The position numbers were made by a program, and so were the translations under genes. Below are positions 25,527-49,614 of a DNA stretch of 64,000 nucleotides, in pieces. The stretch comes from an uncultured Actinomycetota bacterium (lineage in GTDB: Bacteria > Actinomycetota > Actinomycetes > CAVWCF01): the NCBI GenBank assembly GCA_963753435.1, contig CAVWCF010000001.1:672001-736000 (forward strand). The letters run 5' to 3'. Each line of letters begins with the position of its first letter. Position 1 is the stretch's first letter. The notes under the pieces were generated by a model. The model worked only from the letters and a program-made list of their open reading frames with translations. It was not told the origin of the DNA and did not search any database.

Positions 25527-25643
25527 GCGCGCGGAGTCGACCTCCTTCATGCGCCCGAGCGGCGCGGGGGCAAAAAGCCCGACGTTTTGGATCAGTGTGC
25601 CAGCGGCGAGCAAATCCGCCCGCAGCGGGTGTCAATGCGGAAT

Positions 25644-25659
25644 GTTACTCGCCAGTAGG
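25644..25659 (-). promoter_or_regulatory. palindromic operator (copy 1) overlapping the -10 box TAACAT of etfB
   Basis: Minus strand CCTACTGGCGAGTAAC(AT); matches the copies at 38436 and 49599. Confidence 0.65.
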
Positions 25660-26331
25660 GATAGCCCGCATCTCGCCGGGGCCGGCCTGGTTCGGCCCGC
25701 CGGACAGGTCACGAACCACCCGGGCCGGAACGCCGGCCAGCACCTGGTGCGGACCGTGCATGCCGCGCAGGACTGCGCCCGCGGCCAGCACACTGCCGGG
25801 GCCCAAACTGCTGCCCCGCAGCACGGTCGTCTTCGTCCCGAGCCAGGACCCCGCACCGATGCGAATCGGCGACATGGCCAGGCCCTGGTCCTTGATGGGG
25901 CGGGACGGGTCGGTGGCAATGTGGTCGAAATCCCCGATGTAGACATCGTCGGCAACCAGGGTCGCCGCCCCGATCTCGATGTCCAGGTAGCAATTGATGG
26001 TGTCGCGGCAGCCGAGCACCACCTTGTCATGGATCCGCAGCGTGCCTTCGTGCGCACGCAGGGCGGTTGCGTCGCCCACATGCACCCATCGACCCAGGAT
26101 CAATCGCCCGTAGCCGGGTCGACACTCAAGTTGCACTCCTCGACCGAGGAAGACGAACCCCTCGGTGACGATGTCCGGGCGACGCAAGCGCAGCCAGGCG
26201 TACCGCAGGTACCCGATCAGATGCTGCGGCGTGAACGCCCGCTGCCGCCAAACCCACCGCAACGACGGCCACGTGAGCACACGGCACTGCCGCGGGTCCC
26301 GCGCCGGTAGGCCACGCAATCGACGCCACAC
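25645..26331 (-). CDS. hexapeptide-repeat acyltransferase (Rv3034c-like)
   Basis: Left-handed beta-helix repeats, YIGDFDH, PIKDQG and AGVPARVV; start chosen from the upstream TAGCGT -10 box. Confidence 0.85.
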   Translation of the reverse strand: MWRRLRGLPARDPRQCRVLTWPSLRWVWRQRAFTPQHLIGYLRYAWLRLRRPDIVTEGFVFLGRGVQLECRPGYGRLILGRWVHVGDATALRAHEGTLRIHDKVVLGCRDTINCYLDIEIGAATLVADDVYIGDFDHIATDPSRPIKDQGLAMSPIRIGAGSWLGTKTTVLRGSSLGPGSVLAAGAVLRGMHGPHQVLAGVPARVVRDLSGGPNQAGPGEMRAIPTGE

Positions 26332-26375
26332 GACAATCACGCTATCGCCCGCTCCGTCGGGGCTAGCCTGCGCCA

Positions 26376-27668
26376 GTGCCCAAGCCGCAGTCACGATCCG
26401 TCGTCGTTTTGGGGCTGGCCGGACTTCTCGGAATCCCCGTTGCCTTGGCCTCCATTGCGTATCTGTGGGTGGTCCACGAGGTCCAGCACGTCCTCTTCGA
26501 GGCGCTGCCAACCGAACTCGGTATTGGCGGGCTGCCGTGGTGGTACCTGCTGCTCGTTTTGGCCATCGGCGGCGCGGCAACCGGGTTGGCGGTAACCCGA
26601 CTGCGCGGTAACGGCGGGCACCGGCCACTGGGCGGACTCGGCGGCGAGCCGGTTGCACCCAACGCGCTACTCGGCGTGCTCGCCGCGGCAGTAGCGTCCC
26701 TCGGCTTCGGCGCAGTTCTGGGTCCGGAGGCCCCGCTGCTGGCGATGGGTACCGCGCTCGGACTCGCGCTGGCCCGACTGGGCGGCTCATCCGGGGACGA
26801 GTTGTCGGTGGTGGCGGCGGCAGGCGCCTTTGGTGCCCTGAGCGCACTGCTGGGCGGTCCACTGATCGCGGCCATCCTGGTGCTGGAGTTGGCCGTCGTC
26901 ACCGCCCGCCCACTCGTCGCCATCGTTCCGGGCCTCTTCTCCGCCGGGGTCGGATACTTGGTCTTCGCCCAAACCAACGAGTGGGCCGGGGCGCCCGTGC
27001 CGTCGTTCTCCCTTGGCCTGCAACCGGTTGATGAGGTCCAACTCATCGATCTGGCCATCGGAGCCGTCGGGGTGCTGGCGATCGCCATCCTGATCCGTGC
27101 GGTGCTGGCGGGTGCGCGCTCGATCGAGTCCGGCGCCAGTCGACTTGCCAAGCCGGTTCTCACCACGGCCGCGGCCGGCGTCGGGGTCGCCGCTGCCGCA
27201 GTCGTGTTCCGTTGGATCACCGGGGAGTCCGTCGACTTGGTCCTGTTCTCCGGTCAGGAGTCGGCCGGAACGGTGCTCACCGACGGGACGCAGTGGAGTG
27301 CAGCGGTGCTGCTGGCGGTCATCACGGCCAAGGCAGCGGCGTATGCCCTCAGTCTTGGTGGCGGTTTCCGGGGCGGGCTGATCTTCCCAGCCATCTTCCT
27401 TGGCAGCGCGCTGGCGGCGCTCCTGGCGAACCTGCCCGGGGGCGCTAGCGCCCCCGCTCTGGCGACCATCGCGATCGCGGCCAGCGTCGCGGCGATCCTG
27501 CGACTGCCATTCACCGCTGCCGCGATCAGCGTGCTGCTGGTCGGAGCCAGCCCCGAAGCAATGGTCCTGGCCAGCATCGGTGCGGTTCTCGGTCTCTTGG
27601 GTGAGATGGCACTGGACCAGCGCACCCGCGAGGCCGAGGAACGGCTTGGCGCAGGTGCACCGCAGTAA
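26376..27668 (+). CDS. ClC chloride-channel family protein
   Basis: LGPEAP and GGFRGGLIFP motifs, many TM segments. Confidence 0.8.
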   Translation: MPKPQSRSVVVLGLAGLLGIPVALASIAYLWVVHEVQHVLFEALPTELGIGGLPWWYLLLVLAIGGAATGLAVTRLRGNGGHRPLGGLGGEPVAPNALLGVLAAAVASLGFGAVLGPEAPLLAMGTALGLALARLGGSSGDELSVVAAAGAFGALSALLGGPLIAAILVLELAVVTARPLVAIVPGLFSAGVGYLVFAQTNEWAGAPVPSFSLGLQPVDEVQLIDLAIGAVGVLAIAILIRAVLAGARSIESGASRLAKPVLTTAAAGVGVAAAAVVFRWITGESVDLVLFSGQESAGTVLTDGTQWSAAVLLAVITAKAAAYALSLGGGFRGGLIFPAIFLGSALAALLANLPGGASAPALATIAIAASVAAILRLPFTAAAISVLLVGASPEAMVLASIGAVLGLLGEMALDQRTREAEERLGAGAPQ

Positions 27669-28592
27669 TCAGTTCGGCCGCACCCCGGTAACGGATACGT
27701 TGTAGAAAGCCGCGGCCGGAACGACCCGTTCGAAGACGTTTCGGTCCACCCAGGACAGCGAGGTCCACGACCGATAGGCGGCCATCCGCCACCGGTCACC
27801 GAGGCGGTCGGGGTTCACCGCCGCCTCCACGGTCCGGATCGGCCAACCCAGCCAGGCCGCCGTCAACTCATCGGTCACCGTTTGCACATCAACCGCCCCG
27901 GATCGCAAGGCGGTTCGGGCCAACTCCGCCGGATCAAACGTGTGCTGGTCCACGACCGCTTCCAGCGCCGCAGCCGCGCTCGACTCGCGCAACTCGTCCA
28001 TCGGACGCGCCCACCGACGCAGGCCTGGTCGCTGCGTCAGCCAGGTGCTCGCCGCCCATGTTGCCGACGAGAGTCGCCGGGCGACAGCGTTGCCGATGCG
28101 CGTGGGCTCACCGGCGAAGACGAACCGACCACCCGGCCGAAGCACTCGCAGAACTTCGCCGAATGCGGAATCGAGGTCGGGTATGTGGTGCAGCACTGCG
28201 TGCCCGACAACCAGGTCGAAGGCCCGGTCGGGCAGCGGCAACGACTCAGCGTCCGCGATTGAACCGCCAACGGAGAACCCCAGAGTCGCGGCGTTGCGCT
28301 GCGCCGCGGCGACCATGCCCGGCGAAAGGTCAGTGACCGTTCCGGACTCAATGACTCCGGCTGCCATGAGGTTGAGCATGAAGAAGCCGGTACCCGCACC
28401 GATCTCGAGCGCGTTCGCATAGGGCTGGCCGTCCCATTCGGTCGCATGCCGGAAGCGGTCCAGTACGTACGACTGACAGCGCTCGTCGAAGTCGATGGAC
28501 CATTTGGCGTCGTAGGTGTCGGCCTCATAGTCGTGGTAGAGCACGTTGGCCAATTTCGGGTCCGTTCGGGCGGCCTCCCAGTCGATGCTCAT
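27669..28592 (-). CDS. class I SAM-dependent methyltransferase (Rv3038c-like)
   Basis: LEIGAGTG, GHAVLHH and LRPGG motifs. Confidence 0.9.
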   Translation of the reverse strand: MSIDWEAARTDPKLANVLYHDYEADTYDAKWSIDFDERCQSYVLDRFRHATEWDGQPYANALEIGAGTGFFMLNLMAAGVIESGTVTDLSPGMVAAAQRNAATLGFSVGGSIADAESLPLPDRAFDLVVGHAVLHHIPDLDSAFGEVLRVLRPGGRFVFAGEPTRIGNAVARRLSSATWAASTWLTQRPGLRRWARPMDELRESSAAAALEAVVDQHTFDPAELARTALRSGAVDVQTVTDELTAAWLGWPIRTVEAAVNPDRLGDRWRMAAYRSWTSLSWVDRNVFERVVPAAAFYNVSVTGVRPN

Positions 28593-29368
28593 CTGCCGGA
28601 GAACCGAGCCCGACCCGGCCCTTCGGTCACGAACGACGTCATTCCCGCAGCCTGGTCCGCAGTGGCGAACAGAGCCGCGAACTGAATTCGCTCCAACTCC
28701 AGACCAGCCGGCAGGTCAAGTCCGAGCCCGGAGTCGATGGCCTCCTTGGCTGCGCGCAGGGCATACGCCGGACCCGAAACGAACTGCTCGGCCCAGGCCC
28801 TCGCCGCGGCGTAGACCTCGGCAGCAGGCACGGTCCGGTCCACCAATCCGATGCTCAGTGCTTCCTCCGCCGCAACGAAACGGCCCGTGAAGATCAGGTC
28901 CTTCGCGCGTGACGGTCCGATCAGCCGTGGCAACCGTTGGGTGCCACCGGCCCCGGGAATGATCCCCAACGTGATCTCCGGCTGACCCAGCGTGGCGTCC
29001 TCCGCCGCAATACGGAAGTCGCACGCAAGAGCCAACTCACAGCCGCCGCCAAGTGCATAGCCGTTGATCGCCGCGACCGTGGGCTTGGGCAGCTCCGCAA
29101 GCACGTTGAGGCACTCCTGCAACCGCTTGGAACGGTCGACCGCATCGGTGTAGGACCAGCCGGCCATCTGCTTGACATCGGCACCGGCGGCGAACACTCG
29201 CTCCCCGCCGTAGACGACTACTGCGCGTACGTCGGACCGGTCGCCCGCCGCCGCGGCCGCTTCGGCAATCTCGTCCTGCATCTGCGCGTCGAGGGCGTTC
29301 ATCTTTGGCCGGTCCAGCCGGATGGTCGCAACACCGTTGTCAATCTCCAGGCGCACCCACTCGGCCAT
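28589..29368 (-). CDS. enoyl-CoA hydratase/isomerase (EchA17-like)
   Basis: FAAGAD, ALGGGCELALACD and GQPEITLGIIPGAGGTQRL motifs. Confidence 0.93.
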   Translation of the reverse strand: MAEWVRLEIDNGVATIRLDRPKMNALDAQMQDEIAEAAAAAGDRSDVRAVVVYGGERVFAAGADVKQMAGWSYTDAVDRSKRLQECLNVLAELPKPTVAAINGYALGGGCELALACDFRIAAEDATLGQPEITLGIIPGAGGTQRLPRLIGPSRAKDLIFTGRFVAAEEALSIGLVDRTVPAAEVYAAARAWAEQFVSGPAYALRAAKEAIDSGLGLDLPAGLELERIQFAALFATADQAAGMTSFVTEGPGRARFSGR

Positions 29369-29435
29369 CAACGTCTCCATTCGTTTGGCACCGGCTGCGG
29401 TCACCCTAACCACGCACCTGGATAGGTTCCGCGAC

Positions 29436-32410: not shown

Positions 32411-34036
<1,626 letters not shown>

Positions 34037-34093
34037 CCCTTGAGAATGGCACAGTCGAGCACGGCGCGAGCCGCGCACGCGCGGGGAGGTGTG

Positions 34094-35740
34094 ATGACCA
34101 CGACGGTGACGTTGTTCCGCGGCACGATCCGGACCGGCGACCCAGCCGCGCCGACGGCGAAGGCGGTGGCGGTCACCGGTGGCGTGATCAGCGGAACCGA
34201 CGAAACAGCGTTCGCCCAAGCCCGCGCGGCCGACGACTGCGAAGAGATAGAAGCCACCGGCGCGCTGTTGCCGTCGTTCGGCGACGGGCACTGTCACCCC
34301 TTGTTCGGCGGCCTCGAGGACGAGGGTCCGTCGATCAGCGACGCCAGCTCAGTCCAGGAGATCCTGGAGTCCGTCGCCCGGTGGGCGGCCGAGCACCCCA
34401 ACGAACCGTGGGTGCGCGGCGGCTCCTACGAGGCGGCGCTGGCGCCGCATGGCGAGTTCGACGCAAAGTGGCTCGACAGCGTGGTTCCCGATCGGCCCGT
34501 GGCGCTGCGCGCTTCGGACTATCACACGCTGTGGTGCAACTCGGCCGCGCTGCGGCTGGCCGGCATCAACCGCGACACGCCCGATCCCGACTTGGGATTC
34601 ATCGTCAGGCGGCCGGACGGCGAACCGCTCGGGACGTTGCGGGAGTGGCACGCGTGCGACCTGGTCCTCAATGCCCAGCCGCCCTACCGCCCCGAAACGC
34701 TGCAAGCGGCCCTGCTGCGCGCCGGACGACGGATGGCGGCAGCGGGGGTGACGTGGTGGCAGGACGCCTGGGTCGACCCCGGTTCCGGGGTCATCGACGC
34801 ATACCTCGCCGTAGCCGACACGCTGCCGGTGCGCGCCGACCTCGCGTTGCGGGCCGATCCAGATCGCTGGCGCGAGCAGGTGCCGGAGTTCGTCGAGATC
34901 CGGGACCGGCTGGCCGGGTCTCCGACCGCAGCGGGTGTCACTGCGCGCACAGTCAAGTTCTTCGCCGACGGCGTGATCGAGGGCGGAACCGCGGCGCTGC
35001 TGGACGGCTACGCCGACGGGTCCGGTGTGCCCACCGATCGCGGCATGCCGGTCTGGGAACCTTCGGAACTGGCCGAGGCTGCGGTCGTGTTCAGCCGGGC
35101 CGGATTCGGCCTGCACTTGCATGCGATCGGTGACGCGGCGATCCGGTCCGCGCTGAACGCAATTGGCCGCGCGATCGCCCTTACCGGGCCACTACCGAAA
35201 CCACCGGTCATCGCCCACTGCCAACTCATCGACGCGGCCGACCTGCCGCGGTTCGCGGCCCTCGGGGTCATCGCCAACCTCGAGCCGTTATGGCTGTGTC
35301 TGGAGCCGGGCATGACCGAGTTGACGTTGCCCAGGCTAGGTGACCGTGGAGACGCCCAGTACCCACTGGCGGACCTCATCCGCTCCGGGGCCACGGTGTC
35401 GTTCGGGTCGGACTGGCCCATCTCCAGCGAAGTCCCGATGGCCGGTATCGCCACGGCGGTGAGCCGGCAGACCGAGACGGGTGAGCCCCCCGGCGGCTGG
35501 ACGCCGTGGCAACGGATCTCACTGGCCCAAGCGCTGAACGCCTATTCCGCCGCGGTAGCGACCCAAGCCGGGGAGGCTGGGACGTGGGGGCGAATCGCCG
35601 TGGGCAAGCGCGCCGATTTGGTGCTCCTCGACGCTGACCCATACGAGGTGGCGACCTCTGACCTGGCCGGGATCGCGGCCCTGGGCACATGGGCGTCGGG
35701 ACGGCGCACGCACGAGGACACCGGTCAGTCGAGCAGTTGA
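34094..35740 (+). CDS. amidohydrolase 3 family (YtcJ-like) metallohydrolase
   Basis: DGHCH, KFFADG, HAIGD, FGSDWP and GKRADLVLLD motifs. Confidence 0.88.
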   Translation: MTTTVTLFRGTIRTGDPAAPTAKAVAVTGGVISGTDETAFAQARAADDCEEIEATGALLPSFGDGHCHPLFGGLEDEGPSISDASSVQEILESVARWAAEHPNEPWVRGGSYEAALAPHGEFDAKWLDSVVPDRPVALRASDYHTLWCNSAALRLAGINRDTPDPDLGFIVRRPDGEPLGTLREWHACDLVLNAQPPYRPETLQAALLRAGRRMAAAGVTWWQDAWVDPGSGVIDAYLAVADTLPVRADLALRADPDRWREQVPEFVEIRDRLAGSPTAAGVTARTVKFFADGVIEGGTAALLDGYADGSGVPTDRGMPVWEPSELAEAAVVFSRAGFGLHLHAIGDAAIRSALNAIGRAIALTGPLPKPPVIAHCQLIDAADLPRFAALGVIANLEPLWLCLEPGMTELTLPRLGDRGDAQYPLADLIRSGATVSFGSDWPISSEVPMAGIATAVSRQTETGEPPGGWTPWQRISLAQALNAYSAAVATQAGEAGTWGRIAVGKRADLVLLDADPYEVATSDLAGIAALGTWASGRRTHEDTGQSSS

Positions 35741-36660
35741 TCCACAGCTGCAAAGGCGTCGAGGTCACCGCTGGCCACGCGAGCGGCCAACGACTGCAAC
35801 CGCTCCGGGTCGAGGCGGCGGCGTAGCGCGCCGAGCACCAGCCCCTCGACTTCGGCAACAGCTCGCTGCACCCGTCGTCGCCGTCCTTCCCCGCTGTCGC
35901 GCAGGTACTCCTGATGCCGGTCGAGTTCGGTGACCAGTTCCGCCATGCCCTCGCCGGTCGAAGCCACCGTCCGGACCACCGGCGGACGCCACTGCCCCGC
36001 CTCCAAGCCACCCAAGGTGAGCATGGATCGCAACTCCCGCATGGTGGCGTCGGCGCCGTCGCGATCCGCCTTGTTCACTGCGAACACATCGCCCACCTCG
36101 AGGATGCCGGCCTTGGCGGCTTGGATGCCGTCACCCATACCCGGAGCCAGCAGGACGACAGTCGTGTCGGCGCTGGCGGCTACCTCGACTTCGGACTGCC
36201 CGACCCCGACGGTCTCGAGGATCACGACGTCGAAACCGACACCGGCGAGCACACGGGCCGCCTGCGGCGTGGCCGCGGCCAGTCCCCCCAGATGTCCCCG
36301 AGAGGCCATGGACCTGATGAAGACGCCCTCGTCGCCGGCGTGCTCGGACATGCGCACTCGGTCCCCCAACAGCGCACCGCCGGTGAAGGGACTTGAGGGG
36401 TCCACCGCAAGCACCCCGACACGCTCGCCGCGCTCACGGAATGCCCGGATCAACGCGTTTGTGGTGGTCGACTTGCCGACCCCGGGGGAACCGGTGATCC
36501 CGATGATCCGCACGTCGGAACCGGCGCCCGCCAGCGCGGCCATGGCCTCGGGCAACTGCTCGGAGCCGTCCTCAACCACGGACAGCAGGCGCGCCACCGC
36601 GCGTGCTTGCCCGGAACGGGCTGCGGTTACCAGCGCCGCCACGTCAATGGCGTTGGCCAT
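35725..36660 (-). CDS. meaB: mutase-associated GTPase chaperone
   Basis: GSPGVGKST, AVDPSSPFTGGALLGDRVRM, ETVGVGQSE and NKAD motifs. Confidence 0.96.
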   Translation of the reverse strand: MANAIDVAALVTAARSGQARAVARLLSVVEDGSEQLPEAMAALAGAGSDVRIIGITGSPGVGKSTTTNALIRAFRERGERVGVLAVDPSSPFTGGALLGDRVRMSEHAGDEGVFIRSMASRGHLGGLAAATPQAARVLAGVGFDVVILETVGVGQSEVEVAASADTTVVLLAPGMGDGIQAAKAGILEVGDVFAVNKADRDGADATMRELRSMLTLGGLEAGQWRPPVVRTVASTGEGMAELVTELDRHQEYLRDSGEGRRRRVQRAVAEVEGLVLGALRRRLDPERLQSLAARVASGDLDAFAAVDQLLD

Positions 36661-37851
36661 TCAGGAAGCAGGAACCGTAAGGATCAGCGCGTCACCCTGG
36701 CCGCCGCCGCCACACAGTGCGGCCGCACCTCGGCCGCCGCCGCGGCGGCGAAGCTCCAGAGCCAAAGTCAGCGCCAGGCGGGCGCCGGACATGCCGACCG
36801 GGTGCCCCAATGCAATGGCACCACCGTTGACGTTCACTTTTTCGTCCGGCAGGTCCAGCGCGCGCTGGCTGACCAGGCCCACAGCAGCGAAGGCTTCGTT
36901 GATCTCGACCAGGTCCAGGTCCGAGACGTCCAACTGCTGCTTGGCCAGAGCCACCCTGATGGCATTGGCCGGCTGTTCGTGCAGGCTCGGATCCGGTCCG
37001 GCCACGACGCCGTGCGCGCCGATCTCGGCCAGCCAGGTCAGCCCTCGGGCTTCTGCGGCCGCCTTGCTCATGACGACGACGGCGGCGGCGCCATCGGAGA
37101 TCTGCGACGCGTTGCCGGCAGTAATCGTGCCGTCCTTTGTGAAGGCCGCACGAAGCCCCGAAAGGCTGTCGGCGGTGGTGTCCGGGCGGATGCCCTCGTC
37201 GGCGCTGACCACGACCGGGTCGCCCTTGCGCTGGGGGATGGTGACCGGGGCGATCTCCTCGTCGAACAAACCGTTCTTCGCAGCCGCCGCGGCCCGCTGG
37301 TGACTGCGGGCGGCGAACTCATCCTGGTCCGCCCGCGTCAGGCCGTAGCGGCTGTTGTAGTTCTCGGTGGACTCGCCCATTGCGCATTCGTCGAAGGCGC
37401 AGGTGAGCCCGTCGAACAGCATCGAGTCGATCATCTTCCAATCGCCGAACTTGACGCCCTCCCGCGAACCCACGAGCAGGTGCGGTGCGTTGGTCATGGA
37501 TTCCATGCCGCCGGCGACCACCACCTCGAACTCCCCGGCGCGGATCAGTTGATCGGCCAGTGCGATCGCATCGAGGCCGGACAGGCAGACCTTGTTGATC
37601 GTCAGGGCCGGCACGGACATCGGGATCCCGGCCGCAACGGCCGCCTGGCGGGCGGTGATCTGTCCAGTGCCGCCCTGAAGGACCTGGCCCATGACCACGT
37701 AGTCGATGTCGTCGCCGGAAACGCCGGACCGCTGCATCGCGGCCTCGATGGCAACCGCCCCGAGTTGGGCACCACTGAGCGACTTCAACCCGCCGGACAG
37801 TCGCCCCATCGGGGTGCGGGCTCCGGCAACGATGACGCTGGGTCCGGGCAT
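36661..37851 (-). CDS. acetyl-CoA C-acetyltransferase (thiolase)
   Basis: [20 protein letters not shown] and CGGGG motifs. Confidence 0.95.
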
Positions 37852-37945
37852 GTTTCCTCCCGAGTACGGGGCTGATTGGGCGGGTGCCACGATAGTCAGC
37901 ACGGCAGGTCGAATCGCGCCCGCCCCGTACTCGACAGGAGGTCGC

Positions 37946-38386
37946 ATGTCCGCGGTGTTGCCCGACGGCATGGTGGTTCGGATCGATCACGTGGGGATTG
38001 CGGTCGAAGACCTGGACGACGCCATCCGCTTCTACGAGCGTGCCTTCGGCTTTGAGTGCGTGCACCGGGAGCGCAACGAGGAGCAGGGCGTCAACGAAGC
38101 AATGCTGGCCATCGGCGAATCCGGCTCGATGCTGCAGTTGCTCAGCCCGCTGGGTCCGGACACCCCCATCGGCAAGTTCCTGCAGCGCAGCGGACCGGGA
38201 ATCCAGCAGATGGCCTACACCGTGACCGACGTGCGCGCGGCCGCCGCACATCTGCGTGCCCGAGGCCTGCGCCTGCTCTACGACGAGCCCAAGGTCGGGA
38301 CCGCGGGGTCGCTGATCAACTTCGTGCACCCCAAGGACGCCGGCGGCGTGCTGATCGAACTGGTGCAGCCGGGCGAGGACATCTGA
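37946..38386 (+). CDS. mce: methylmalonyl-/ethylmalonyl-CoA epimerase
   Basis: RIDHVGIAV and [16 protein letters not shown] motifs; RBS AGGAGG. Confidence 0.93.
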
Positions 38387-38435
38387 AGCCCAGACCCGAG
38401 TCCACAGCGGCCCACATGGGCTGATTCGCCTCATT

Positions 38436-38451
38436 GTTACTGGCCGGTAAT
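38436..38451 (+). promoter_or_regulatory. palindromic operator (copy 2) overlapping the -10 box TAATAT of ccrA
   Basis: GTTACTGGCCGGTAAT(AT). Confidence 0.65.
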
Positions 38452-38484
38452 ATCAGCGCCTAGTATTCGGTCGAGGAGGCCCAA

Positions 38485-39822
38485 GTGGAGCAGATTCTCC
38501 AGACCATCCTGGCCGGTGCGAATGATCCGGCCGCGTACGCGGCGCTGCCCGTGCCGGAGTCCTACGCAGCCATCACGGTGCACGCCGATGAAGTCGACAT
38601 GTTCGCCGGCACACCGACCCGCGAGCGGGACCCGCGCCAGTCCCTGCACCTCGACGAGGTGCCCGTCCCGGAACTGGGCCCGGGTGAGGCGCTGGTCGCG
38701 GTGATGGCCAGTTCCATCAACTACAACACGGTTTGGACTTCCATCTTCGAACCGGTCCCCACCTTCGACTTCCTCAAGCGGTACGGGCGCATCCACCCAC
38801 TGGCCGCCCGCCACGATCTGCCGTACCACGTGATCGGATCGGACCTGTCCGGCGTGGTGCTGCGCGTCGGCGTCGGGGTGAGCGCCTGGAAACCGGGAGA
38901 CGAGGTAGTCGCGCACTGCCTGTCAGTGGAGTTGGAGCACCCGCAGGGTCACGACGACACGATGCTGGACCCCGAACAACGGATCTGGGGCTTCGAGACG
39001 AACTTCGGCGGGCTGGCGCAACTGGCCCTGGTCAAGTCCAATCAGCTCCTGCCCAAGCCGGCGCATCTGACCTGGGAAGAGGCCGCCGCGCCCGGACTGG
39101 TCAACTCCACTGCCTACCGCCAGTTGGTATCGACCCACGGCGCCGGGATGAAGCAAGGCGACGTCGTGCTGATCTGGGGCGCCTCCGGCGGCCTGGGGTC
39201 GTACGCGACGCAAATGGCCCTCAACGGGGGCGCGACGCCGATCTGTGTCGTCTCAAGTCCGGAGAAGGCCGAGATCTGCCGCAGCCTGGGCGCCGAACTC
39301 ATCATCGACCGGGCCGCTGAGGACTACCGCTTCTGGAAAGACGAGAACACCCAGGACCCCAAGGAGTGGAAGCGGTTCGGTGCCCGTATCCGGGAACTAA
39401 CCGGTGGCGACGACGTGGACATCGTCTTCGAGCACCCGGGACGGGAAACCTTCGGCGCGTCGGTTTACGTCGCACGCAAGGGCGGCACCATCGTCACCTG
39501 CGCTTCCACCTCCGGGTTCCTGCACCAGTACGACAACCGCTACCTCTGGATGAACCTCAAGCGGATCATCGGCAGCCACTTCGCCAACTACCGCGAGGCG
39601 TGGGAGGCAAACCGACTGATCGCCCGCGGCCGGATCCACCCGACCCTGAGCAAGGTGTTCCCGCTTGCCGAGACCGGGCAGGCCGCGCTGGAGGTGCACA
39701 GCAATCGCCACCAGGGCAAGGTCGGGGTGCTCTGCCTGGCCCCGGAGGAAGGCCTTGGGGTCCGCGATGAGGCCCTCCGCGAGCGACACCTGGACTCGAT
39801 CAACCGCTTCCGCGACGTCTGA
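38485..39822 (+). CDS. ccrA: crotonyl-CoA carboxylase/reductase
   Basis: SSINYNTVW, IWGFETNFG, WGASGGLG, FEHPG and IIGSHFAN motifs. Confidence 0.97.
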   Translation: MEQILQTILAGANDPAAYAALPVPESYAAITVHADEVDMFAGTPTRERDPRQSLHLDEVPVPELGPGEALVAVMASSINYNTVWTSIFEPVPTFDFLKRYGRIHPLAARHDLPYHVIGSDLSGVVLRVGVGVSAWKPGDEVVAHCLSVELEHPQGHDDTMLDPEQRIWGFETNFGGLAQLALVKSNQLLPKPAHLTWEEAAAPGLVNSTAYRQLVSTHGAGMKQGDVVLIWGASGGLGSYATQMALNGGATPICVVSSPEKAEICRSLGAELIIDRAAEDYRFWKDENTQDPKEWKRFGARIRELTGGDDVDIVFEHPGRETFGASVYVARKGGTIVTCASTSGFLHQYDNRYLWMNLKRIIGSHFANYREAWEANRLIARGRIHPTLSKVFPLAETGQAALEVHSNRHQGKVGVLCLAPEEGLGVRDEALRERHLDSINRFRDV

Positions 39823-39827
39823 CCTAC

Positions 39828-40571
39828 TCAGGCCTTTTCACAGCGCGCAATCAAGCCCGTCAACGCAGCCGCGACCGCAGCCGGGGTTTCCACCGCGGCC
39901 AGATGCCCCGCACCGCGCACGGTGACCCGCTCTACGTCGGCGAGGGCGTCCGACATCGCCAGGGCATCGGCCTCGGCCGCGAGGGCGTCCTCGTCGCCCC
40001 GGAGCACGAGCGCCGGGCCGTTGAAACCAGCGAGGTCCGCCAGCGAGTCGGGGCGAGCGGCCATGGCCCGCTGGGCCCAGGCCACGGCCATCGGGTTGGC
40101 CGCCGCCACCATGGCGTGAACCTCGGCAACAACGTCGGCGCGATCGCGCTTGGTGCTCTCCCCCACGAGCGCCGGCTCCACGTCCGCGTGCACGACCGCC
40201 AACCCAGCCGACTCCGCCGCAGCGGCGATCCGCTCCCGATTGGCGCGAGCGGCCGGGGGGTCGGCGGCGGCCTTCGTGTCCAGCAACGCCAGGCCGGCCA
40301 CGCGCTGCGGGGATAGCCGCAGCAGTTCCATGGCCACGTAGCCGCCCATGCTGGTGCCGCCCAGGATCACGCGGTGCAGCCCGGCGGCGTCCATTTCGGC
40401 CAGGACGGCCTCCGCGTAGGCCGCCAGGCTGGGCGTACCCGACGGCATCGCAGCCGAGCCGAAGCCCGGGAGGTCCGGGGTGATTACGTCGGCGGCCAAC
40501 TCCCGGTGCAGGCGGTCGTACATCGCGGCGTGCAGCGGGAACGCGTGCAACAGAACCAGTGGCGGGGTCAC
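39828..40571 (-). CDS. alpha/beta-fold hydrolase
   Basis: LLHAFP, GTSMGG nucleophile elbow, GDED and AGHL motifs. Confidence 0.88.
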   Translation of the reverse strand: MTPPLVLLHAFPLHAAMYDRLHRELAADVITPDLPGFGSAAMPSGTPSLAAYAEAVLAEMDAAGLHRVILGGTSMGGYVAMELLRLSPQRVAGLALLDTKAAADPPAARANRERIAAAAESAGLAVVHADVEPALVGESTKRDRADVVAEVHAMVAAANPMAVAWAQRAMAARPDSLADLAGFNGPALVLRGDEDALAAEADALAMSDALADVERVTVRGAGHLAAVETPAAVAAALTGLIARCEKA

Positions 40572-41344
40572 GGCTGCACCGTAGGGGTCAACTCCTGTGT
40601 CAGGTCGCTGAAGGACCAGGCTGGGCCGTCCCACGTGCTCGGCAGCGGCGCGGCCGCGTCCGGCCCAAGTACGCGGCTGACGATGTGGTCCAAGGCGATG
40701 CGGACGAACGGTTCGCCGACCCACAAGTGCTTGGCACCATCCACGCCGACTACTTCCGCTTGCCGTACCGCCGCGAAGCGAGCGGTTGCCTCGGCTGGAC
40801 GCAGGTAGTCGTCCAACTCCGGGATCAACGCCAACAACGGAGTTCCCGCCGCGTCCCAGCGCGCCAGGTGCTCATCGGTACTGAACCGCAACGGCGGCGA
40901 CAGCAGAATCGCTCCGGCTATCGCCGGATCCAGGCCGTGCATCAACGCCAGGTCGGTACCGAAGGACCAACCGAGCAGCCACGGCTGCGGCAGGTGCTCG
41001 AACTCGGCGAACTCGATCGCAGCGGCAACGTCGTACCGCTCACCGACCGCTGCCTCGAACTGCCCTTGGGAAGTGCCGTGCGCAGACGTAGTCCCGCGGG
41101 TGTTGAACCGCAGCACCGCGATCCCGGCCAGGGCGGGAAGTCGCCAGGCCGCCTTGCGCAGGAGGTGGCTGTCCATCATCCCGCCATGCGTCGGCAACGG
41201 GTGCAGGCAGACCAACGTGGCCGCCGGCTCGGAGTCCGGCGGCAACGCCAACTCCCCCACCAGCTCCAGGCCGTCGGCGGTGTGCAGCGTGACCGGGCGG
41301 CGACGAGCCGGCAGGACGGTGTTGGCGCGGATCTGGACGGTCAC
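40568..41344 (-). CDS. alpha/beta-fold hydrolase
   Basis: HPLPTHGGMMDS, RFNTRG, GWSFG and AKHLW motifs; GTGA overlaps on both sides. Confidence 0.88.
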   Translation of the reverse strand: MTVQIRANTVLPARRRPVTLHTADGLELVGELALPPDSEPAATLVCLHPLPTHGGMMDSHLLRKAAWRLPALAGIAVLRFNTRGTTSAHGTSQGQFEAAVGERYDVAAAIEFAEFEHLPQPWLLGWSFGTDLALMHGLDPAIAGAILLSPPLRFSTDEHLARWDAAGTPLLALIPELDDYLRPAEATARFAAVRQAEVVGVDGAKHLWVGEPFVRIALDHIVSRVLGPDAAAPLPSTWDGPAWSFSDLTQELTPTVQP

Positions 41345-41604
41345 GACAGCGGGCGCCGCCGCTCGCGCGCCTGCCAGCAGGCCTTGTGCCAGTGGCGTCG
41401 GTGACCACTGCCCAGATGCTCGGGCCAAACGACCAGGTGCGGAGTGGCGGTCGGGATCTCCAGGTCACAGCCGGGGCAGCGGTACGGCTTGGTGGACGAG
41501 GAACCGCGGATCGGCCGGACCACGTAGTCCTCGCCGTCGAAGGTCTCGATGCGCTCGGGCGCCGGTCCTGAGCCGCCGCGCGCAGCAGGACGCCGCTTGC
41601 TCAC
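41341..41604 (-). CDS. conserved small actinobacterial protein (Rv1322-like), putative Zn-binding
   Basis: YRCPGCD...HLVVWP...RRHWHKACW. Confidence 0.8.
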   Translation of the reverse strand: MSKRRPAARGGSGPAPERIETFDGEDYVVRPIRGSSSTKPYRCPGCDLEIPTATPHLVVWPEHLGSGHRRHWHKACWQARERRRPLS

Positions 41605-43379
41605 GGTGTGTTGTAGACCCGGAACCCGCGCCCGGCCTTGCGACCGAGATATCCGGCCGTGACCAGGTGCTCCAGAAGCGGTGCGGGTGCGAACCCGGGC
41701 TCGCGGAACTCCCGGTACAACTGCATCTGGATGGCCAGCGCCACATCCAGGCCGACGACGTCGAGCAACTCGAACGGCCCCATCGGGTAGCCGGTGCCCA
41801 CCTTCATGGCGGTGTCGATGTCGTCAGCGCTGGCGTAGTGCGCCTCCAACATCTTCACCGCGTCGTTCAGGTACGGGAACAAGAGCGTGTTGACGATGAA
41901 GCCGGAGCGGTCACCGCACTGCACCGGGGTCTTGCCCAGCCGGCGCACCAACGCCGTTCCAGTTGCCAAGGCCTCCGGTCCGGAATGCACCGTGGCCACC
42001 ACCTCGACCAGGTCCATCGCCTGGGCCGGGTTGAAGAAGTGCAGTCCGACCACGTCGGCCGGCCGTTTGGTCGCCGCCGCCATCTCGATGACCGGCAGGC
42101 TGGACGTGGTCGTTGCCAGCACCGCCCCGGGCTTGCAGATCTCATCGAACGTCTCGAACAGGGTCTGCTTGACCGACAACTCTTCGACGGCCGCCTCAAT
42201 GACCACATCGACATCCGCGAGGTCGTCGAGGCGATGCGATCCGACGATTCGATCCAGCAACGGATCCCGCTCGTCGGCGGCCAACTTGCCCCGTAGTACG
42301 GCCTTGTCCACCGAACGCTCGATCTCGGCTCGTACGGCCGCCACCTTCTCCTCGCCACGAGTGACGTAAAGAACGTCCACGCCGGAGCGTGCCAGCGCCT
42401 CGATGATCCCCTTGGCCATGGTCCCCGAACCGGCGACACCGACACGCTGCACCGGCCGTCCGGTCACCTCGCCGTCCGGCCGCGGGGTTGCCGCGTCGTC
42501 AACGACTACCGGCGAGTCAGCGCTCTCGTAGGTGTAGAAACCGCGACCGGTCTTGCGGCCGAGCAGGCCCGCAGTCACCAGTTGCTTGAGGATCGGCGCC
42601 GGTGCGTGCAGCCGGTCCCGGGTCTGGCGGTACATCGTGTCGAGGATCTCGTAGGCGGTGTCCAGGCCGACCAGGTCGAGCAGGGCCAACGGCCCCATTG
42701 GGTAGCCGGCTCCGAGCCGCATGGCGGCGTCGATGTCCTCGCGCGTGGCGTAGCGAGTCTCGTACAGGCGGACCGCGTGGTTGAGGTATCCGAACAGGAG
42801 GGCGTTGGCGATGAAGCCCGCCTTGTCACCGACGACCACCGGCTGCTTGCCCAGCCGCGCGGCCAGCCCCTTGACGTCCTCGACTACCTCGGGGTCGGTG
42901 ACGACGGTCCGCACCACCTCGACAAGCTTGAGTACGGGTGCCGGGTTGAAGAAGTGCATCCCGACCAGCAGCGCCGGCCGCGTCGTCGCCACCGAGATCT
43001 CCGTCACCGACAGCGAGGAGGTGTTGGTAGCCAGAATGGCGTCCGGACGCACGATCTTGTCCACCCGGCCAAGCAGGTCCTGTTTGAGGTCCAGGTGTTC
43101 CGGAACCGCCTCGATGACCAGATCCGCCTCGGCCAGGTCGTCCATGGATGTCGTGAACCGGATGCGGTCGAAAATGGCCTTCTGCTCGTTGTCGGTGAGC
43201 TTGCCGCGCTTGACCGCGCGCCCGGTGGAAGCGGCCAGGTGTCCCCGGCCCCGCTCGATCCCGGACTCCTCGCCCTCCACGCCGATGACGTCGAAGCCGT
43301 TACGGGCAAACACCTCGGCGATGCCCGCACCCATGGTGCCGAGACCGATAACGCCGATAGTGCGGAAGTCGCGGGCCAT
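41601..43379 (-). CDS. 3-hydroxyacyl-CoA dehydrogenase with tandem duplicated domains
   Basis: Two copies of GxGTM / xTSSL / HFFNPA / YPMGP. Confidence 0.93.
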   Translation of the reverse strand: MARDFRTIGVIGLGTMGAGIAEVFARNGFDVIGVEGEESGIERGRGHLAASTGRAVKRGKLTDNEQKAIFDRIRFTTSMDDLAEADLVIEAVPEHLDLKQDLLGRVDKIVRPDAILATNTSSLSVTEISVATTRPALLVGMHFFNPAPVLKLVEVVRTVVTDPEVVEDVKGLAARLGKQPVVVGDKAGFIANALLFGYLNHAVRLYETRYATREDIDAAMRLGAGYPMGPLALLDLVGLDTAYEILDTMYRQTRDRLHAPAPILKQLVTAGLLGRKTGRGFYTYESADSPVVVDDAATPRPDGEVTGRPVQRVGVAGSGTMAKGIIEALARSGVDVLYVTRGEEKVAAVRAEIERSVDKAVLRGKLAADERDPLLDRIVGSHRLDDLADVDVVIEAAVEELSVKQTLFETFDEICKPGAVLATTTSSLPVIEMAAATKRPADVVGLHFFNPAQAMDLVEVVATVHSGPEALATGTALVRRLGKTPVQCGDRSGFIVNTLLFPYLNDAVKMLEAHYASADDIDTAMKVGTGYPMGPFELLDVVGLDVALAIQMQLYREFREPGFAPAPLLEHLVTAGYLGRKAGRGFRVYNTP

Positions 43380-43415
43380 GTTGCTCCTCAGGTGTCGAAC
43401 CGGCATTCTCCCAGA

Positions 43416-44876: not shown

Positions 44877-44914
44877 GGGCCGCGACGCTACCGCTGCGGC
44901 TACCGTCGGCGCCC

Positions 44915-45586: not shown

Positions 45587-45602
45587 CGCTAACGTGCTTT
45601 GT

Positions 45603-46457: not shown

Positions 46458-47269
46458 GCGTTACGGAAGCGAGCCCACCATCAGCCTGGAGTCTCGGGCG
46501 GCGCCGTGCCGGCATCGAGTTGAAGCAGTTCTTCCGCGACCGCGAGTCGGCACTGTTCAACTTCGCACTGCCCATGCTGCTGCTGGTCGTCTTCGGTTCC
46601 GCGTTCGATGCGGAGATCGAGCCTGGTGTGACCTTCAGCCAGTACTTCCTGGCCGGCATGATCGCCAGCGGCCTCGTCTACAGCGGCTTTCAGAACCTCG
46701 CCATCTCGATTCCCCTGGAGCGCGACGACGGAACCCTCAAGCGGCTGCGCGGCACCCCGATGCCGTCCGCCTCGTACTTCATCGGCAAGACCATCGTGGT
46801 GCTCATTTCGGTCACGGCGCAGATAACACTGCTGCTCGCCATCGGCGTCCTGCTCTTCGACGTGACGATGCCGGACACCGCGCAGAAATGGTTCACGTTG
46901 CTCTGGGTGAGCCTGCTGGGCGTGGTCGTCTGCTCACTGCTCGGAATCGCCTACTCAGCCATACCTCGCAACGGGCGCAGTGCGTCCGCGCTGGTGACGC
47001 CGGTCGTGCTGGTGTTGCAGTTCACGTCCGGCGTCTTCTTCGTGTTCAGCCAGTTGCCTTCGTGGATGCAGCAATTCGCGTCCCTGTTCCCGCTGAAGTG
47101 GCTGTGCCAGGGCATGCGGTCGGTGTTCCTGCCGGAGTCGTTCGCCGCCGTCGAACCGGCTGGCTCGTGGGAACTGCCCATGGTGGCGCTGGTGCTTGTC
47201 GCGTGGTCGATCGGGGCAGCCGTGCTGGCCCGCCTGGCGTTTCGGTGGACCCGCAGCGATGCTGACTGA
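46454..47269 (+). CDS. ABC-2 exporter permease
   Basis: Six TM segments, ERDDGTLKRLRGTP; ATGA overlap with the ATPase. Confidence 0.92.
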   Translation: MSVTEASPPSAWSLGRRRAGIELKQFFRDRESALFNFALPMLLLVVFGSAFDAEIEPGVTFSQYFLAGMIASGLVYSGFQNLAISIPLERDDGTLKRLRGTPMPSASYFIGKTIVVLISVTAQITLLLAIGVLLFDVTMPDTAQKWFTLLWVSLLGVVVCSLLGIAYSAIPRNGRSASALVTPVVLVLQFTSGVFFVFSQLPSWMQQFASLFPLKWLCQGMRSVFLPESFAAVEPAGSWELPMVALVLVAWSIGAAVLARLAFRWTRSDAD

Positions 47270-47292
47270 CTACGGATCGGAGGAGGAGAAAG

Positions 47293-47604
47293 ATGAACGA
47301 CCAGCGCCAGCAGTGGGACGAGTACGTGGACCGGGCCAGTGACGTACTGAGCGGCTTGATCGCCGACGCCCAGCGCACCTTGGAGGACGGCCGCAAGAGT
47401 CTCGGCGAGTACCAGGCCCGCCGCCAAACGGAGCGTTTGCTCGCTCGACTCGGCGCCGCCGTTTACGCCGCCGAACGATCTGGCGGGCCCGCCGCGGCCG
47501 TGGCTGAAGCGATGTCCGCCGTCGACGAGCACGTGGCAGCGCACGGGTCCGCGGACCTGCCGCCTGCCGATGTCGACCGGGCCGGCAGCGAGGCGAACGA
47601 TTAG
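47293..47604 (+). CDS. hypothetical protein (helical)
   Basis: Strong RBS GGAGGAGG; fills the gap between neighbours. Confidence 0.7.
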   Translation: MNDQRQQWDEYVDRASDVLSGLIADAQRTLEDGRKSLGEYQARRQTERLLARLGAAVYAAERSGGPAAAVAEAMSAVDEHVAAHGSADLPPADVDRAGSEAND

Positions 47605-49571
47605 CCGTCTGCCAACCCCCGGGCCCGGCGGATGGCGCCGACCACCTGCGTCAGGTCCTCGGTCAGGTCGAAGTCCTTCGGGGTGAACACCGCAGCCACC
47701 CCGCCAGCGACCAGGACAGCAGCGTCGGCAGCCGGGATGATCCCGCCGACGACCACGGGCACGTCGGTCAGCCCTGCCTCCCGCAGCCCGGCCACCACCG
47801 CGGGCACCAGGTCCAGGTGCGAACCGGACAGCACCGACAGGCCCACGCAGTGGACGTCGTCGGCGACCGCCGAGGCGACGATCTGCTCCGGGGTGAGTCG
47901 GATGCCCGCGTAGACGACCTCGAAACCCGCGTCGCGGGCGCGCACCGCAACCTGTTCGGCGCCGTTGCTGTGGCCGTCCAAGCCGGGCTTGGCCACCAGG
48001 ATCCGCAATCGAGTCCCTAGCTGGGCTCCGGTGCTCTGCACCAGTTCGCGCAGCTGGGCCAACCCGGCCGAAGGCGTAGTCGGAGCATCGGCTACCCCCG
48101 TGGGCGCGCGGTACTCGCCGAAGACCTCGCGCAGCGCACCCGCCCACTCCCCGGTTGTCACACCGGCACGGGCGCACTGCATGGTGGCCGGCATCAACGA
48201 CTCGGTACCAGCGGCGGCAGCGGTCAAGGCCGCCAAAGCCTCCTTGACCGCCACCGGATCCCGTTGCTCACGCCAACGCTGCAGCGCTGCCACGGCTTCA
48301 GCTTCCGCGGCGGGGTCGACGCTGAGGATCGCCGCGCCACTGGCGGTCAACGGGCTGGGCTCGGTCTCCACGAACGAGTTGACGCCGATGACCTTCTGCT
48401 CACCGGACTCGATGCGGCCGCGACGCTGGGCGTGCGAGCTCACCAACTGCGCCTTCAGATAGCCGTCGGCGACGGCGGCCACTACGCCGCCACGAGCGTC
48501 GATCTGCTCCAGCTCCGCTCTGGCGGCATCGAGGAGTTCGGTGACTTTGCTTTCGACGACCGGAGAGCCGGTGAACAGGTCGGGGTATTCCAGCAAGTCG
48601 GACTCGTATGCGAGTACCTGCTGCATTCGCAGCGACCACTGCTGGTCCCATGGTCGTGGCAGGCCGAGGGCCTCGTTCCAAGCGGGCAACTGGATGGCTC
48701 GGGCCCGGGCGTCCCGACTCAAGGTCACGCCCAGCATCTCCAGCATGATGCGAGCGACGTTGTTTTCCGGCTGCTCCTCCGTGAGGCCCAGCGAATTGAC
48801 CTGCACTCCATACCGGAAGCGACGCTGGTCTGGGTTCTCGATGCCGTAGCGGTCGCGGGTGATCTCCTCCCAGAGGAGACCGAACGCGCGCATCTTGCAC
48901 ATCTCCTCCACGAAGCGAACTCCGGCGTTCACGAAGAAAGACATGCGACCGACAACGTCACCGAATCGCTCCGGTGGCACCTGCCCGCTGTCCCGCACCG
49001 CGTCCAGCACGGCGATCGCAGTCGCCATCGAGAACGCCAACTCCTGCACGGGAGTGGCCCCGGCCTCCTGCAGGTGATACGAGCAGATGTTGATCGGGTT
49101 CCACTTCGGCATCGTCGCCACCGAATGCGCGATGAGGTCTGCAGACAACCGCAGGCTGACCTCCGGCCCGAAGACGTAGGTGCCGCGACTCAAGTACTCC
49201 TTGATGATGTCGTTCTGCGTAGTACCGGACAGGGCTGCGATCTCGACGCCGGTCTCGGCGGCCACCGCCTCGTACAGCGCCAGTAGCCACATCGCGGTGG
49301 CGTTGATCGTCATCGAGGTGTTCATCCGGTCCAGGGGCAACCCGTCGAACAGCGCGCGCATGTCCCCCAAGTGCGCGATCGGCACACCCACGCGGCCAAC
49401 TTCCCCACGCGCCCGGGGGTCGTCAGGGTCGTAGCCGGTCTGGGTGGGCAGGTCGAACGCGACCGAAAGCCCGGTCTGGCCCTTGGCCATGTTGGTGTGG
49501 AAAAGGGCGTTGGAGGCCTGCGCCGACGTGTGTCCGGCGTAGGTCCGCATGACCCAGGGCCGATCCGGCAT
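47601..49571 (-). CDS. meaA: ethylmalonyl-CoA mutase (MeaA/Ecm)
   Basis: WVMRTYAGH, QNDIIKEYLSRG, FRYGVQVNSLGLT and the fused B12 domain KPGLDGHSNG. Confidence 0.93.
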   Translation of the reverse strand: MPDRPWVMRTYAGHTSAQASNALFHTNMAKGQTGLSVAFDLPTQTGYDPDDPRARGEVGRVGVPIAHLGDMRALFDGLPLDRMNTSMTINATAMWLLALYEAVAAETGVEIAALSGTTQNDIIKEYLSRGTYVFGPEVSLRLSADLIAHSVATMPKWNPINICSYHLQEAGATPVQELAFSMATAIAVLDAVRDSGQVPPERFGDVVGRMSFFVNAGVRFVEEMCKMRAFGLLWEEITRDRYGIENPDQRRFRYGVQVNSLGLTEEQPENNVARIMLEMLGVTLSRDARARAIQLPAWNEALGLPRPWDQQWSLRMQQVLAYESDLLEYPDLFTGSPVVESKVTELLDAARAELEQIDARGGVVAAVADGYLKAQLVSSHAQRRGRIESGEQKVIGVNSFVETEPSPLTASGAAILSVDPAAEAEAVAALQRWREQRDPVAVKEALAALTAAAAGTESLMPATMQCARAGVTTGEWAGALREVFGEYRAPTGVADAPTTPSAGLAQLRELVQSTGAQLGTRLRILVAKPGLDGHSNGAEQVAVRARDAGFEVVYAGIRLTPEQIVASAVADDVHCVGLSVLSGSHLDLVPAVVAGLREAGLTDVPVVVGGIIPAADAAVLVAGGVAAVFTPKDFDLTEDLTQVVGAIRRARGLADG

Positions 49572-49598
49572 CCGCTCCTCCTTAAGGAACGGCCCAAC

Positions 49599-49614
49599 CC
49601 TACTCGCCAGTAAC
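49599..49614 (-). promoter_or_regulatory. palindromic operator (copy 3) overlapping the -10 box TAGGGT of meaA/ecm
   Basis: Minus strand GTTACTGGCGAGTAGG(GT). Confidence 0.65.

What the first reader, a model, noticed from the sequence alone, without database searches (positions are those of the whole stretch)
25642..49614. A shared palindromic operator fused to the -10 box of etfB, ccrA and ecm: candidate acyl-CoA regulon
Seen: read in the gene's sense, three upstream regions spread over 24 kb share one layout. etfB has CCTACTGGCGAG-TAACAT (25659-25642), ccrA has GTTACTGGCCGG-TAATAT (38436-38453) and ecm/meaA has GTTACTGGCGAG-TAGGGT (49614-49597). The consensus is GTTACT-N4-(A/G)GTAAC, and each time the right half-site begins a TAnnnT -10 hexamer, which is repressor geometry. 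Known: acyl-CoA-responsive TetR repressors in actinobacteria (BkaR, AccR and, as I recall, FdmR/Rv0238) bind similar GTTA-N8-TAAC palindromes. Inference: one repressor, not encoded in this window, co-regulates ETF and the two committed ethylmalonyl-CoA enzymes.
Basis: partly seen in the sequence, partly recalled or inferred. Interest (0 to 1): 0.7.

Follow-up and report, generated by a model that had tools for sequence, protein, structure and literature searches.

The report
FasR-type operator on fat-breakdown promoters
Three promoters in this window carry the same short DNA palindrome, which is conserved across actinomycete bacteria and is likely the docking site of the genome's FasR protein, a fatty-acyl-CoA sensor known as an activator of fat synthesis in mycobacteria that here would repress fat breakdown and acetyl-CoA assimilation genes.

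Summary
The three sites are real, at the stated coordinates, and far above chance. The core is TACY-N4-RGTA. It recurs upstream of fadA-fadB, fadE5 and the genome's FasR (Rv3208-type) gene, and in orthologous promoters of relatives (ccr 11/17, etfB 15/25, ecm 8/15, fasR 14/24). The right arm starts a TAnnnT -10 box in 48/50 sites, and leaderless starts cluster 6-8 nt behind it. The etfB/ecm core matches a site in the FasR co-crystal DNA at 11/12 bases. Motif excess tracks FasR across the class (86/102 genomes with it, 3/24 without). A 1.4-Mb genome that shares only FasR among TetRs keeps the sites. So FasR likely represses beta-oxidation, ETF and ethylmalonyl-CoA genes, in a genome lacking its known target, FAS I. 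Binding, repression and transcription starts are untested. The core motif was predicted in mycobacteria in 2012, and this scan reached the same FasR reading before on other DNA; the ethylmalonyl-CoA link is what this window adds.

The parts
25644..25659 (-). Operator upstream of etfB-etfA (12-bp core TACTGGCGAGTA at 25657-25646)
   Evidence: orthologous site in 15 of 25 published relatives
25642..25647 (-). Predicted -10 hexamer TAACAT of etfB, its TA shared with the operator's right arm
   Evidence: the same layout is leaderless (ATG 7 nt behind) in 5 of 5 streamlined genomes
24747..25526 (-). etfB, electron transfer flavoprotein beta subunit
   Evidence: PF01012
23777..24730 (-). etfA, ETF alpha subunit, 16 nt behind etfB (co-transcription inferred)
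38436..38451 (+). Operator upstream of ccr (core TACTGGCCGGTA at 38438-38449)
   Evidence: orthologous site in 11 of 17 published relatives
38448..38453 (+). Predicted -10 hexamer TAATAT of ccr
38485..39822 (+). ccr, crotonyl-CoA carboxylase/reductase
   Evidence: TIGR01751, 615.6 bits, cut-off 378.55
49599..49614 (-). Operator upstream of ecm/meaA (core TACTGGCGAGTA at 49612-49601)
   Evidence: orthologous site in 8 of 15 published relatives
49597..49602 (-). Predicted -10 hexamer TAGGGT of ecm
47601..49571 (-). Fused B12-dependent mutase, MeaA/Ecm type (ethylmalonyl-CoA mutase inferred)
   Evidence: ortholog lies directly behind ccr in G029 and G008 (G008 unpublished); N-terminal RTYAGH signature recalled

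Best explanation
The palindrome is a conserved 12-bp inverted repeat overlapping the predicted -10 box of etfBA, ccr and ecm, and it is likely the operator of the genome's FasR ortholog (G000:C5:175769-176401), which would repress these promoters until long-chain acyl-CoA releases it. Shown: the sites, their non-random spacing and position, their conservation, the FasR ortholog, a site at its own promoter, and the co-occurrence of motif and FasR. Inferred: a FasR dimer sits on the spacer and the first two bases of the -10 hexamer and blocks RNA polymerase. Acyl-CoA entering the hydrophobic tunnel opens the DNA-binding heads, as in mycobacterial FasR. One signal then switches on beta-oxidation (fadA-fadB, fadE5), its electron drain (EtfAB) and, in this genome without isocitrate lyase, the ethylmalonyl-CoA route (ccr, ecm) that assimilates the acetyl-CoA produced.
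For: (1) The FasR co-crystal oligonucleotide contains AACTCGCCAGTA (PMC7382501), 11/12 identical to the etfB and ecm cores; homologous repeats lie upstream of fas in G123. (2) The genome's TetR hits FasR structures at E 8e-51, is 47% identical to the G123 ortholog, groups with it at SH-aLRT 99 in a quick tree, and has the recognition helix SKPVLYQHF seen in all 27 orthologs matched. (3) A site lies at its own promoter and at 14 of 24 published orthologs. (4) Pattern excess of 3 or more over a 1-nt-wider control: 105 of 126 genomes with FasR, 4 of 34 without; 86 of 102 against 3 of 24 for published genomes at least 90% complete. Without any FdmR-like gene: 64 of 79 with FasR, 2 of 23 without. 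(5) G093 has three TetRs, of which only FasR is shared with this genome, and keeps sites at etfB, fadA and fadE5, as do four congeners. (6) The sister paralog has its own tandem TACG-N4-CGTA operator, and none of its 30 loci has the TACY form. (7) TAnnnT follows on the gene strand in 48 of 50 sites against 9 on the other strand; an in-frame start lies 6-8 nt behind it in 13 of 45, against 1 at 0-4 and 1 at 10-14. (8) Y77, L98, L106, F123 and F138 of FasR are identical here, with V163I and L185V conservative. (9) No FAS I and no isocitrate lyase were found in this 98% complete genome, with controls ringing.
Against: No binding, expression or transcription-start data; the RNA runs were contigs at small shares. 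In the passages I read, FasR is described only as an activator of fas-acpS. Three near-complete genomes with motif excess gave no FasR hit: G025 (370 contigs, with a clear etfB site), G122 (has an FdmR-like gene) and G042. 16 of 102 FasR-bearing genomes show no genome-wide excess, and G132 has no site. The fasR promoter lacks an exact site in all five streamlined genomes and in G123. A third to a half of orthologous promoters lack it, including ccr and ecm in G029. mcd has it in only 5 of 21. The promoters of the etfD-like gene, accA and fabD in this genome have none, so no activator-type target was found here. Genomes are kin, so the co-occurrence P values overstate. Non-TetR regulators were not excluded.
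Confidence: 0.78

Rival explanations
1. The sites are true operators, but another regulator binds them: a non-TetR factor that is inherited together with FasR, or FasR in some lineages and FdmR-like proteins in others.
For: G025, G042 and G122 keep the motif with no FasR found. Mycobacteria-like genomes have the most sites (26-36) and carry FdmR, which is described as the repressor of fatty-acid degradation there.
Against: The motif is nearly identical to DNA co-crystallised with FasR, sits at fasR itself and is enriched in 64 of 79 FasR-positive, FdmR-negative genomes. Two of the three exceptions are fragmented assemblies (370 and 220 contigs).
Confidence: 0.1
2. FasR binds the sites, but as an activator or a weak modulator, or the real -10 boxes lie elsewhere, so the switch is not simple repression.
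For: FasR is a proven activator at fas. A second TAnnnT (TAGTAT, window 38462-38467) lies downstream of the ccr site. At fadE5 in the streamlined genomes, and at mcd and glpD here, the hexamer after the arm lacks the final T. One RNA contig starts at 38421, upstream of the ccr site (contigs cannot show starts).
Against: The 48/50 strand asymmetry and the sharp 6-8 nt leaderless peak put the operator over positions -24 to -11. At G123 fas the repeats are not fused to a TAnnnT box.
Confidence: 0.07
3. The Rv1019-like sister TetR (G000:C5:44514-45182; name recalled) is the regulator, or shares the sites.
For: It is the sister clade of FasR with a similar helix, SKPVVYEHF, occurs in 33 of 41 genomes, and its sites also fit TAC-N6-GTA.
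Against: Its operon carries a different tandem operator, TACG-N4-CGTA, in 15 of 25 published relatives and never the TACY form. G039 and G093 lack it yet keep the etfB, fadA and fadE5 sites.
Confidence: 0.04
4. The palindrome is only an extended promoter element or a chance by-product of -10 boxes in GC-rich DNA.
For: The right arm GTA overlaps the -10 box, so part of its conservation is explained by the promoter.
Against: The left arm is fixed at exactly 6 nt: other spacings occur in 0-2 promoters per gene. Genomes without FasR mostly lack it. The targets are coherent lipid-catabolic genes.
Confidence: 0.01

Closest known systems
FasR (Rv3208) of Mycobacterium; Lara et al. 2020, PMC7382501; bioRxiv 10.1101/2020.06.08.140004 (passages read)
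   Same: Orthologous protein, same recognition helix and tunnel residues, near-identical inverted repeat; release by long-chain acyl-CoA is shown for the mycobacterial protein.
   Different: Described as an activator of fas-acpS through three upstream repeats. Here FAS I was not found, and single sites overlap the -10 box of catabolic and ethylmalonyl-CoA genes, which predicts repression.
Predicted TAC-N6-GTA motif of McGuire et al. 2012, PMC3388012 (passages read)
   Same: Same core; reported upstream of fas, Rv3229c and Rv3230c.
   Different: No regulator, -10 fusion, ETF or ethylmalonyl-CoA targets in the passages read. My data suggest it merges two operators (TACY-RGTA and tandem TACG-CGTA), which lie side by side at the G123 desaturase.
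FdmR (Rv0238); Dong et al. 2021 PNAS (paper not held; seen only as cited in PMC12403877)
   Same: Long-chain acyl-CoA-responsive TetR repressor of fatty-acid degradation. In FdmR-bearing G123 the same motif precedes ETF, acyl-CoA dehydrogenase, thiolase, isocitrate lyase and malate synthase genes.
   Different: No ortholog found here; FdmR-like hits in only 27 of 161 genomes. I could not read its published motif.
BkaR (Rv2506), PMC3920632 (passages read), and AccR (motif from review PMC10933834)
   Same: 16-bp TetR palindromes; the BkaR core GTTA(N)T(N4)A(N)TAAC formally admits the ideal site.
   Different: The three EMSA-positive M. smegmatis BkaR sites seen read GTTAAT, and AccR is GTTAA-N6-TTAAC; the invariant C/G pair is missing. 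Both control local branched-chain clusters. No ortholog found here.
E. coli FadR (GntR family; recalled)
   Same: Works like it: one acyl-CoA sensor represses degradation and activates synthesis.
   Different: Unrelated protein family and motif.

Membership tests
FasR (Rv3208) operator/regulon | A FasR ortholog is encoded in the genome | tested here: met
FasR (Rv3208) operator/regulon | 12-bp inverted repeat matching FasR-bound DNA | tested here: met
   11/12 to a repeat in the co-crystal oligonucleotide
FasR (Rv3208) operator/regulon | Recognition helix and acyl-tunnel residues conserved | tested here: met
FasR (Rv3208) operator/regulon | Activates fas-acpS through three upstream repeats | tested here: not met
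   no FAS I found in G000; no site at fabD or accA. Hence a variant regulon, not the described one
FasR (Rv3208) operator/regulon | Direct binding and release by long-chain acyl-CoA | not testable with these tools
   needs EMSA or footprinting
FdmR (Rv0238) regulon | FdmR ortholog present | tested here: not met
   best tblastn 25%; no hit at E 1e-18. The query was the G123 protein, identified as FdmR from recall
FdmR (Rv0238) regulon | Published FdmR motif matches | not tested
   paper not held
FdmR (Rv0238) regulon | Targets are fatty-acid degradation genes | tested here: met
   works like FdmR
BkaR/AccR regulon | Ortholog present | tested here: not met
   six TetRs searched against the PDB; AccR itself was not used as a query
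BkaR/AccR regulon | Motif with GTTAA arms | tested here: not met
   invariant TAC...GTA here
Repressor operator on a housekeeping promoter | Overlap with a functional -10 box and mapped start | tested here: inconclusive
   strand asymmetry and leaderless spacing support it; no start-site data

The most novel reading that the evidence does not exclude
FasR is the ancestral, class-wide FadR equivalent of Actinomycetia: chiefly a repressor coupling beta-oxidation and ETF to whichever acetyl-CoA assimilation route a lineage has (ethylmalonyl-CoA here, glyoxylate shunt genes in mycobacteria). Its known activator role at fas is a mycobacterial add-on, FdmR is a later co-occupant of the same sites, and a sister paralog reads the same core with one base pair changed.
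Probability: 0.55. Interest if true: 0.7.

Novelty: new variant of a known kind. Interest (0 to 1): 0.5.

Why it matters
If right, it names the regulator of fatty-acid degradation for most actinomycetes, including streptomycete-like genomes, where acyl-CoA supply limits polyketide yields. It also gives a regulatory link between beta-oxidation and the ethylmalonyl-CoA pathway. It recasts FasR, studied as an activator of synthesis, as a dual regulator, and it predicts that FasR and FdmR compete for the same sites in mycobacteria. It is directly testable with one purified protein and three oligonucleotides. The mechanism itself, an acyl-CoA-sensing TetR on a -10 box, is conventional.

Tried and rejected
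Transcription starts: 16 RNA runs found, all contigs at shares of 0.14 or less; laying 4 of them gave scattered pieces and no start information. The sigma-70 scan of the ccr promoter found nothing, since it needs a -35 box. My first ccr upstream script mis-oriented minus-strand loci; it was replaced. PF19344 did not separate FdmR from its relatives. PF17951 rang nowhere and was replaced by PF08354. The TetR beside mcd was rejected: no ortholog next to mcd in 21 relatives, one weak HTH-level hit. The DesT-like and two other TetRs were rejected because G093 lacks them yet keeps the sites. The careful tree did not finish; the quick tree is cited. The FdmR, Mondino 2013 and AccR primary papers were not held, so a prior description of this wider regulon there, or in supplements, cannot be excluded. 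Ten paper searches listed no paper whose title or abstract start describes FasR as a repressor of beta-oxidation or ethylmalonyl-CoA genes; two searches returned far more papers than were listed (20 of 387, 25 of 46,122). No structure or complex prediction was run.
Full report
Observation. The window is G000:C1:672001-736000 of a 2.17-Mb, 68% GC genome, 98% complete. The genes are etfB-etfA, ccr (TIGR01751, 615 bits) and a fused B12 mutase. The mutase's ortholog lies directly behind ccr in G029, so it is read as MeaA/Ecm; its N-terminal signature is recalled, not tested. Each site differs from GTTACT-N4-AGTAAC at two positions.

More than chance. YTACY-N4-RGTAR occurs 16 times in the genome against 0-6 at each of 12 other spacings, and 11 times in intergenic DNA against 0-1. 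With the three-site matrix, 5 intergenic hits reach 18 bits, against a mean of 0.13 and a maximum of 1 in 100 column-permuted matrices (three of the observed top hits are the training sites). The next hits of that matrix lie before fadA-fadB, a fadE5-like dehydrogenase, two divergent hydrolases and a TetR gene. A matrix built only from 49 sites in published relatives returns 14 top hits in G000, all intergenic, including the three window sites.

Conservation. In 250 nt upstream of orthologs from a 40-genome sample, TAC-N6-GTA was found at ccr in 13 of 21, etfB in 16 of 29, ecm in 8 of 18 and fasR in 14 of 27; each other spacing from 2 to 10 occurred in 0-2 promoters. Leaving out the unpublished genomes G008, G030, G032 and G036, the counts are 11/17, 15/25, 8/15 and 14/24. 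Two fasR loci at contig edges were dropped. The etfB loci were the best 30 of 40 matches; of six more fetched, two had the site, three did not and one did not align. By matrix score of 12 bits or more, with the unpublished genomes included, the counts were 12/21, 14/29, 9/29 and 7/18 against 0.05-0.15 expected from shuffles. G001 and G002 are congeners and not independent. mcd has the site in only 5 of 21, and ccr and ecm lack it in G029, where they form one cluster.

Geometry. Among 50 sites in published relatives, TAnnnT follows on the gene strand in 48 and on the opposite strand in 9. In 13 of 45 an in-frame start codon lies 6-8 nt behind the hexamer, against 1 at 0-4, 1 at 9 and 1 at 10-14. 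This is the spacing of leaderless transcripts and indirectly supports the -10 assignment. The operator core would cover roughly -22 to -11, which is repressor position. Direct start mapping was not possible.

Which regulator. The genome has six TetR genes. One (C5:175769-176401) matches FasR structures at E 8e-51, lies beside DUF3107 and carries a site at its own promoter. The DNA co-crystallised with FasR contains AACTCGCCAGTA (PMC7382501, passages), 11 of 12 bases identical to the etfB and ecm cores. The recognition helix SKPVLYQHF is the same in all 27 orthologs matched, and the G000 protein groups with the mycobacterial-type ortholog at SH-aLRT 99 in a quick tree. Residues named in that paper map to Y, L, L, F, F unchanged, with V163I and L185V. 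In a 160-genome class sample FasR was found in 126. The pattern YTACY-N4-RGTAR-NNT exceeded its N5 control by 3 or more in 105 of these and in 4 of the 34 without FasR; for published genomes at least 90% complete, 86 of 102 against 3 of 24. Averaged by family, the median excess was 6.3 in 38 all-positive families and 0 in 10 all-negative ones. Kinship inflates any P value.

Excluding others. An FdmR-like protein (G123, identity recalled) has no ortholog in G000 and hits 27 of 161 genomes. Among published near-complete genomes without it, 64 of 79 with FasR and 2 of 23 without show the excess. BkaR (PMC3920632, passages) and AccR (review PMC10933834, passages) read GTTAA arms, and no G000 TetR looks like BkaR beyond family level. 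The sister paralog (Rv1019-like, name recalled) has its own tandem TACG-N4-CGTA operator in 15 of 25 published relatives, several misses being truncated loci, and none of its 30 loci has the TACY form. Five closed 1.4-1.5-Mb genomes of one genus keep sites at etfB, fadA and fadE5; one of them, G093, has three TetRs and shares only FasR with G000.

Against. G025, G042 and G122 have motif excess with no FasR found even at a looser threshold; G025 has a clear etfB site. Sixteen of 102 FasR-bearing genomes show no genome-wide excess. The fasR promoter has no exact site in the five small genomes or in G123. No activator-type site was found before fabD or accA in G000. In the papers I could read FasR is only an activator. 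Non-TetR factors were not excluded.

Mechanism. Shown: sites, spacing, conservation, ortholog, co-occurrence, and that neither FAS I nor isocitrate lyase was found in G000. Inferred: a FasR dimer blocks polymerase at the -10 box and leaves when long-chain acyl-CoA fills its tunnel, so beta-oxidation, ETF and ethylmalonyl-CoA assimilation rise together. In mycobacterium-like G123 the same motif precedes ETF, fadE5, thiolase, isocitrate lyase and malate synthase genes, and three or more related repeats lie upstream of fas. This suggests an E. coli FadR-like dual logic (FadR recalled), with FdmR perhaps sharing the catabolic sites there.

What is known. McGuire et al. 2012 (PMC3388012, passages) predicted TAC-N6-GTA upstream of fas, Rv3229c and Rv3230c without a regulator. 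Balhana et al. 2015 (PMC4482099, passages) list an Rv3208 upstream motif whose logo I could not see. FdmR is known to me only through citing text and recall. I saw it after recording my own reading and do not count it as support. Other look-ups gave nothing relevant.

Verdict. A real, conserved operator, best read as a FasR-type repressor site. It is a new variant of a known kind: known protein, known core motif, but a different sign of control and different targets, with the ethylmalonyl-CoA genes as this window's addition. Confidence 0.78; interest 0.5.

Noticed in passing
G000:C5:46208-46234 (L003), upstream of a desaturase-TetR operon: Tandem TACG-N4-CGTA repeats at a 15-bp period, conserved in 15 of 25 published relatives; likely the operator of the Rv1019-like sister paralog of FasR.
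   Followed up: yes
G000:C5:210471-210499 (L008): A paralog-type site and a FasR-type site back to back between two divergent alpha/beta hydrolases; the same pairing precedes the desaturase in G123. Possible dual control.
   Followed up: partly
G000:C1:1498927-1498965 (L009): Two FasR-type sites 23 bp apart before the fadE5-like gene, each followed by TAnnnT.
   Followed up: partly
G000:C5:176409-176383 (L001): An 8-codon ORF starts 6 nt behind the fasR -10 box and its stop overlaps the likely fasR ATG (read by eye); it could be a leaderless uORF or chance.
   Followed up: no
G000:C1:1069725, C5:124541, C1:1048061, C1:473510, C1:360019, C1:261017: Further high-scoring intergenic sites before a glycerol-3-phosphate-dehydrogenase-like gene, an oligopeptide-binding protein, an M23 peptidase, a DUF3159 operon, a hydrolase and the proteasomal ATPase; conservation not tested.
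   Followed up: partly
G123 loci L201, L209, L216: In a mycobacterium-like genome the same motif precedes isocitrate lyase and malate synthase and lies near monomeric isocitrate dehydrogenase, the counterpart of ccr/ecm here.
   Followed up: partly
G088: 45 pattern matches, many the near-identical CTACTCACCAGTA, some in pairs 56 bp apart; probably a repeat element that has captured or mimics the operator.
   Followed up: no
window 32411-43406: Cluster of mutase large subunit, meaB, thiolase, epimerase, ccr and a tandem-domain 3-hydroxybutyryl-CoA dehydrogenase; only ccr carries the operator here, whereas the tandem dehydrogenase has a site in G127.
   Followed up: partly
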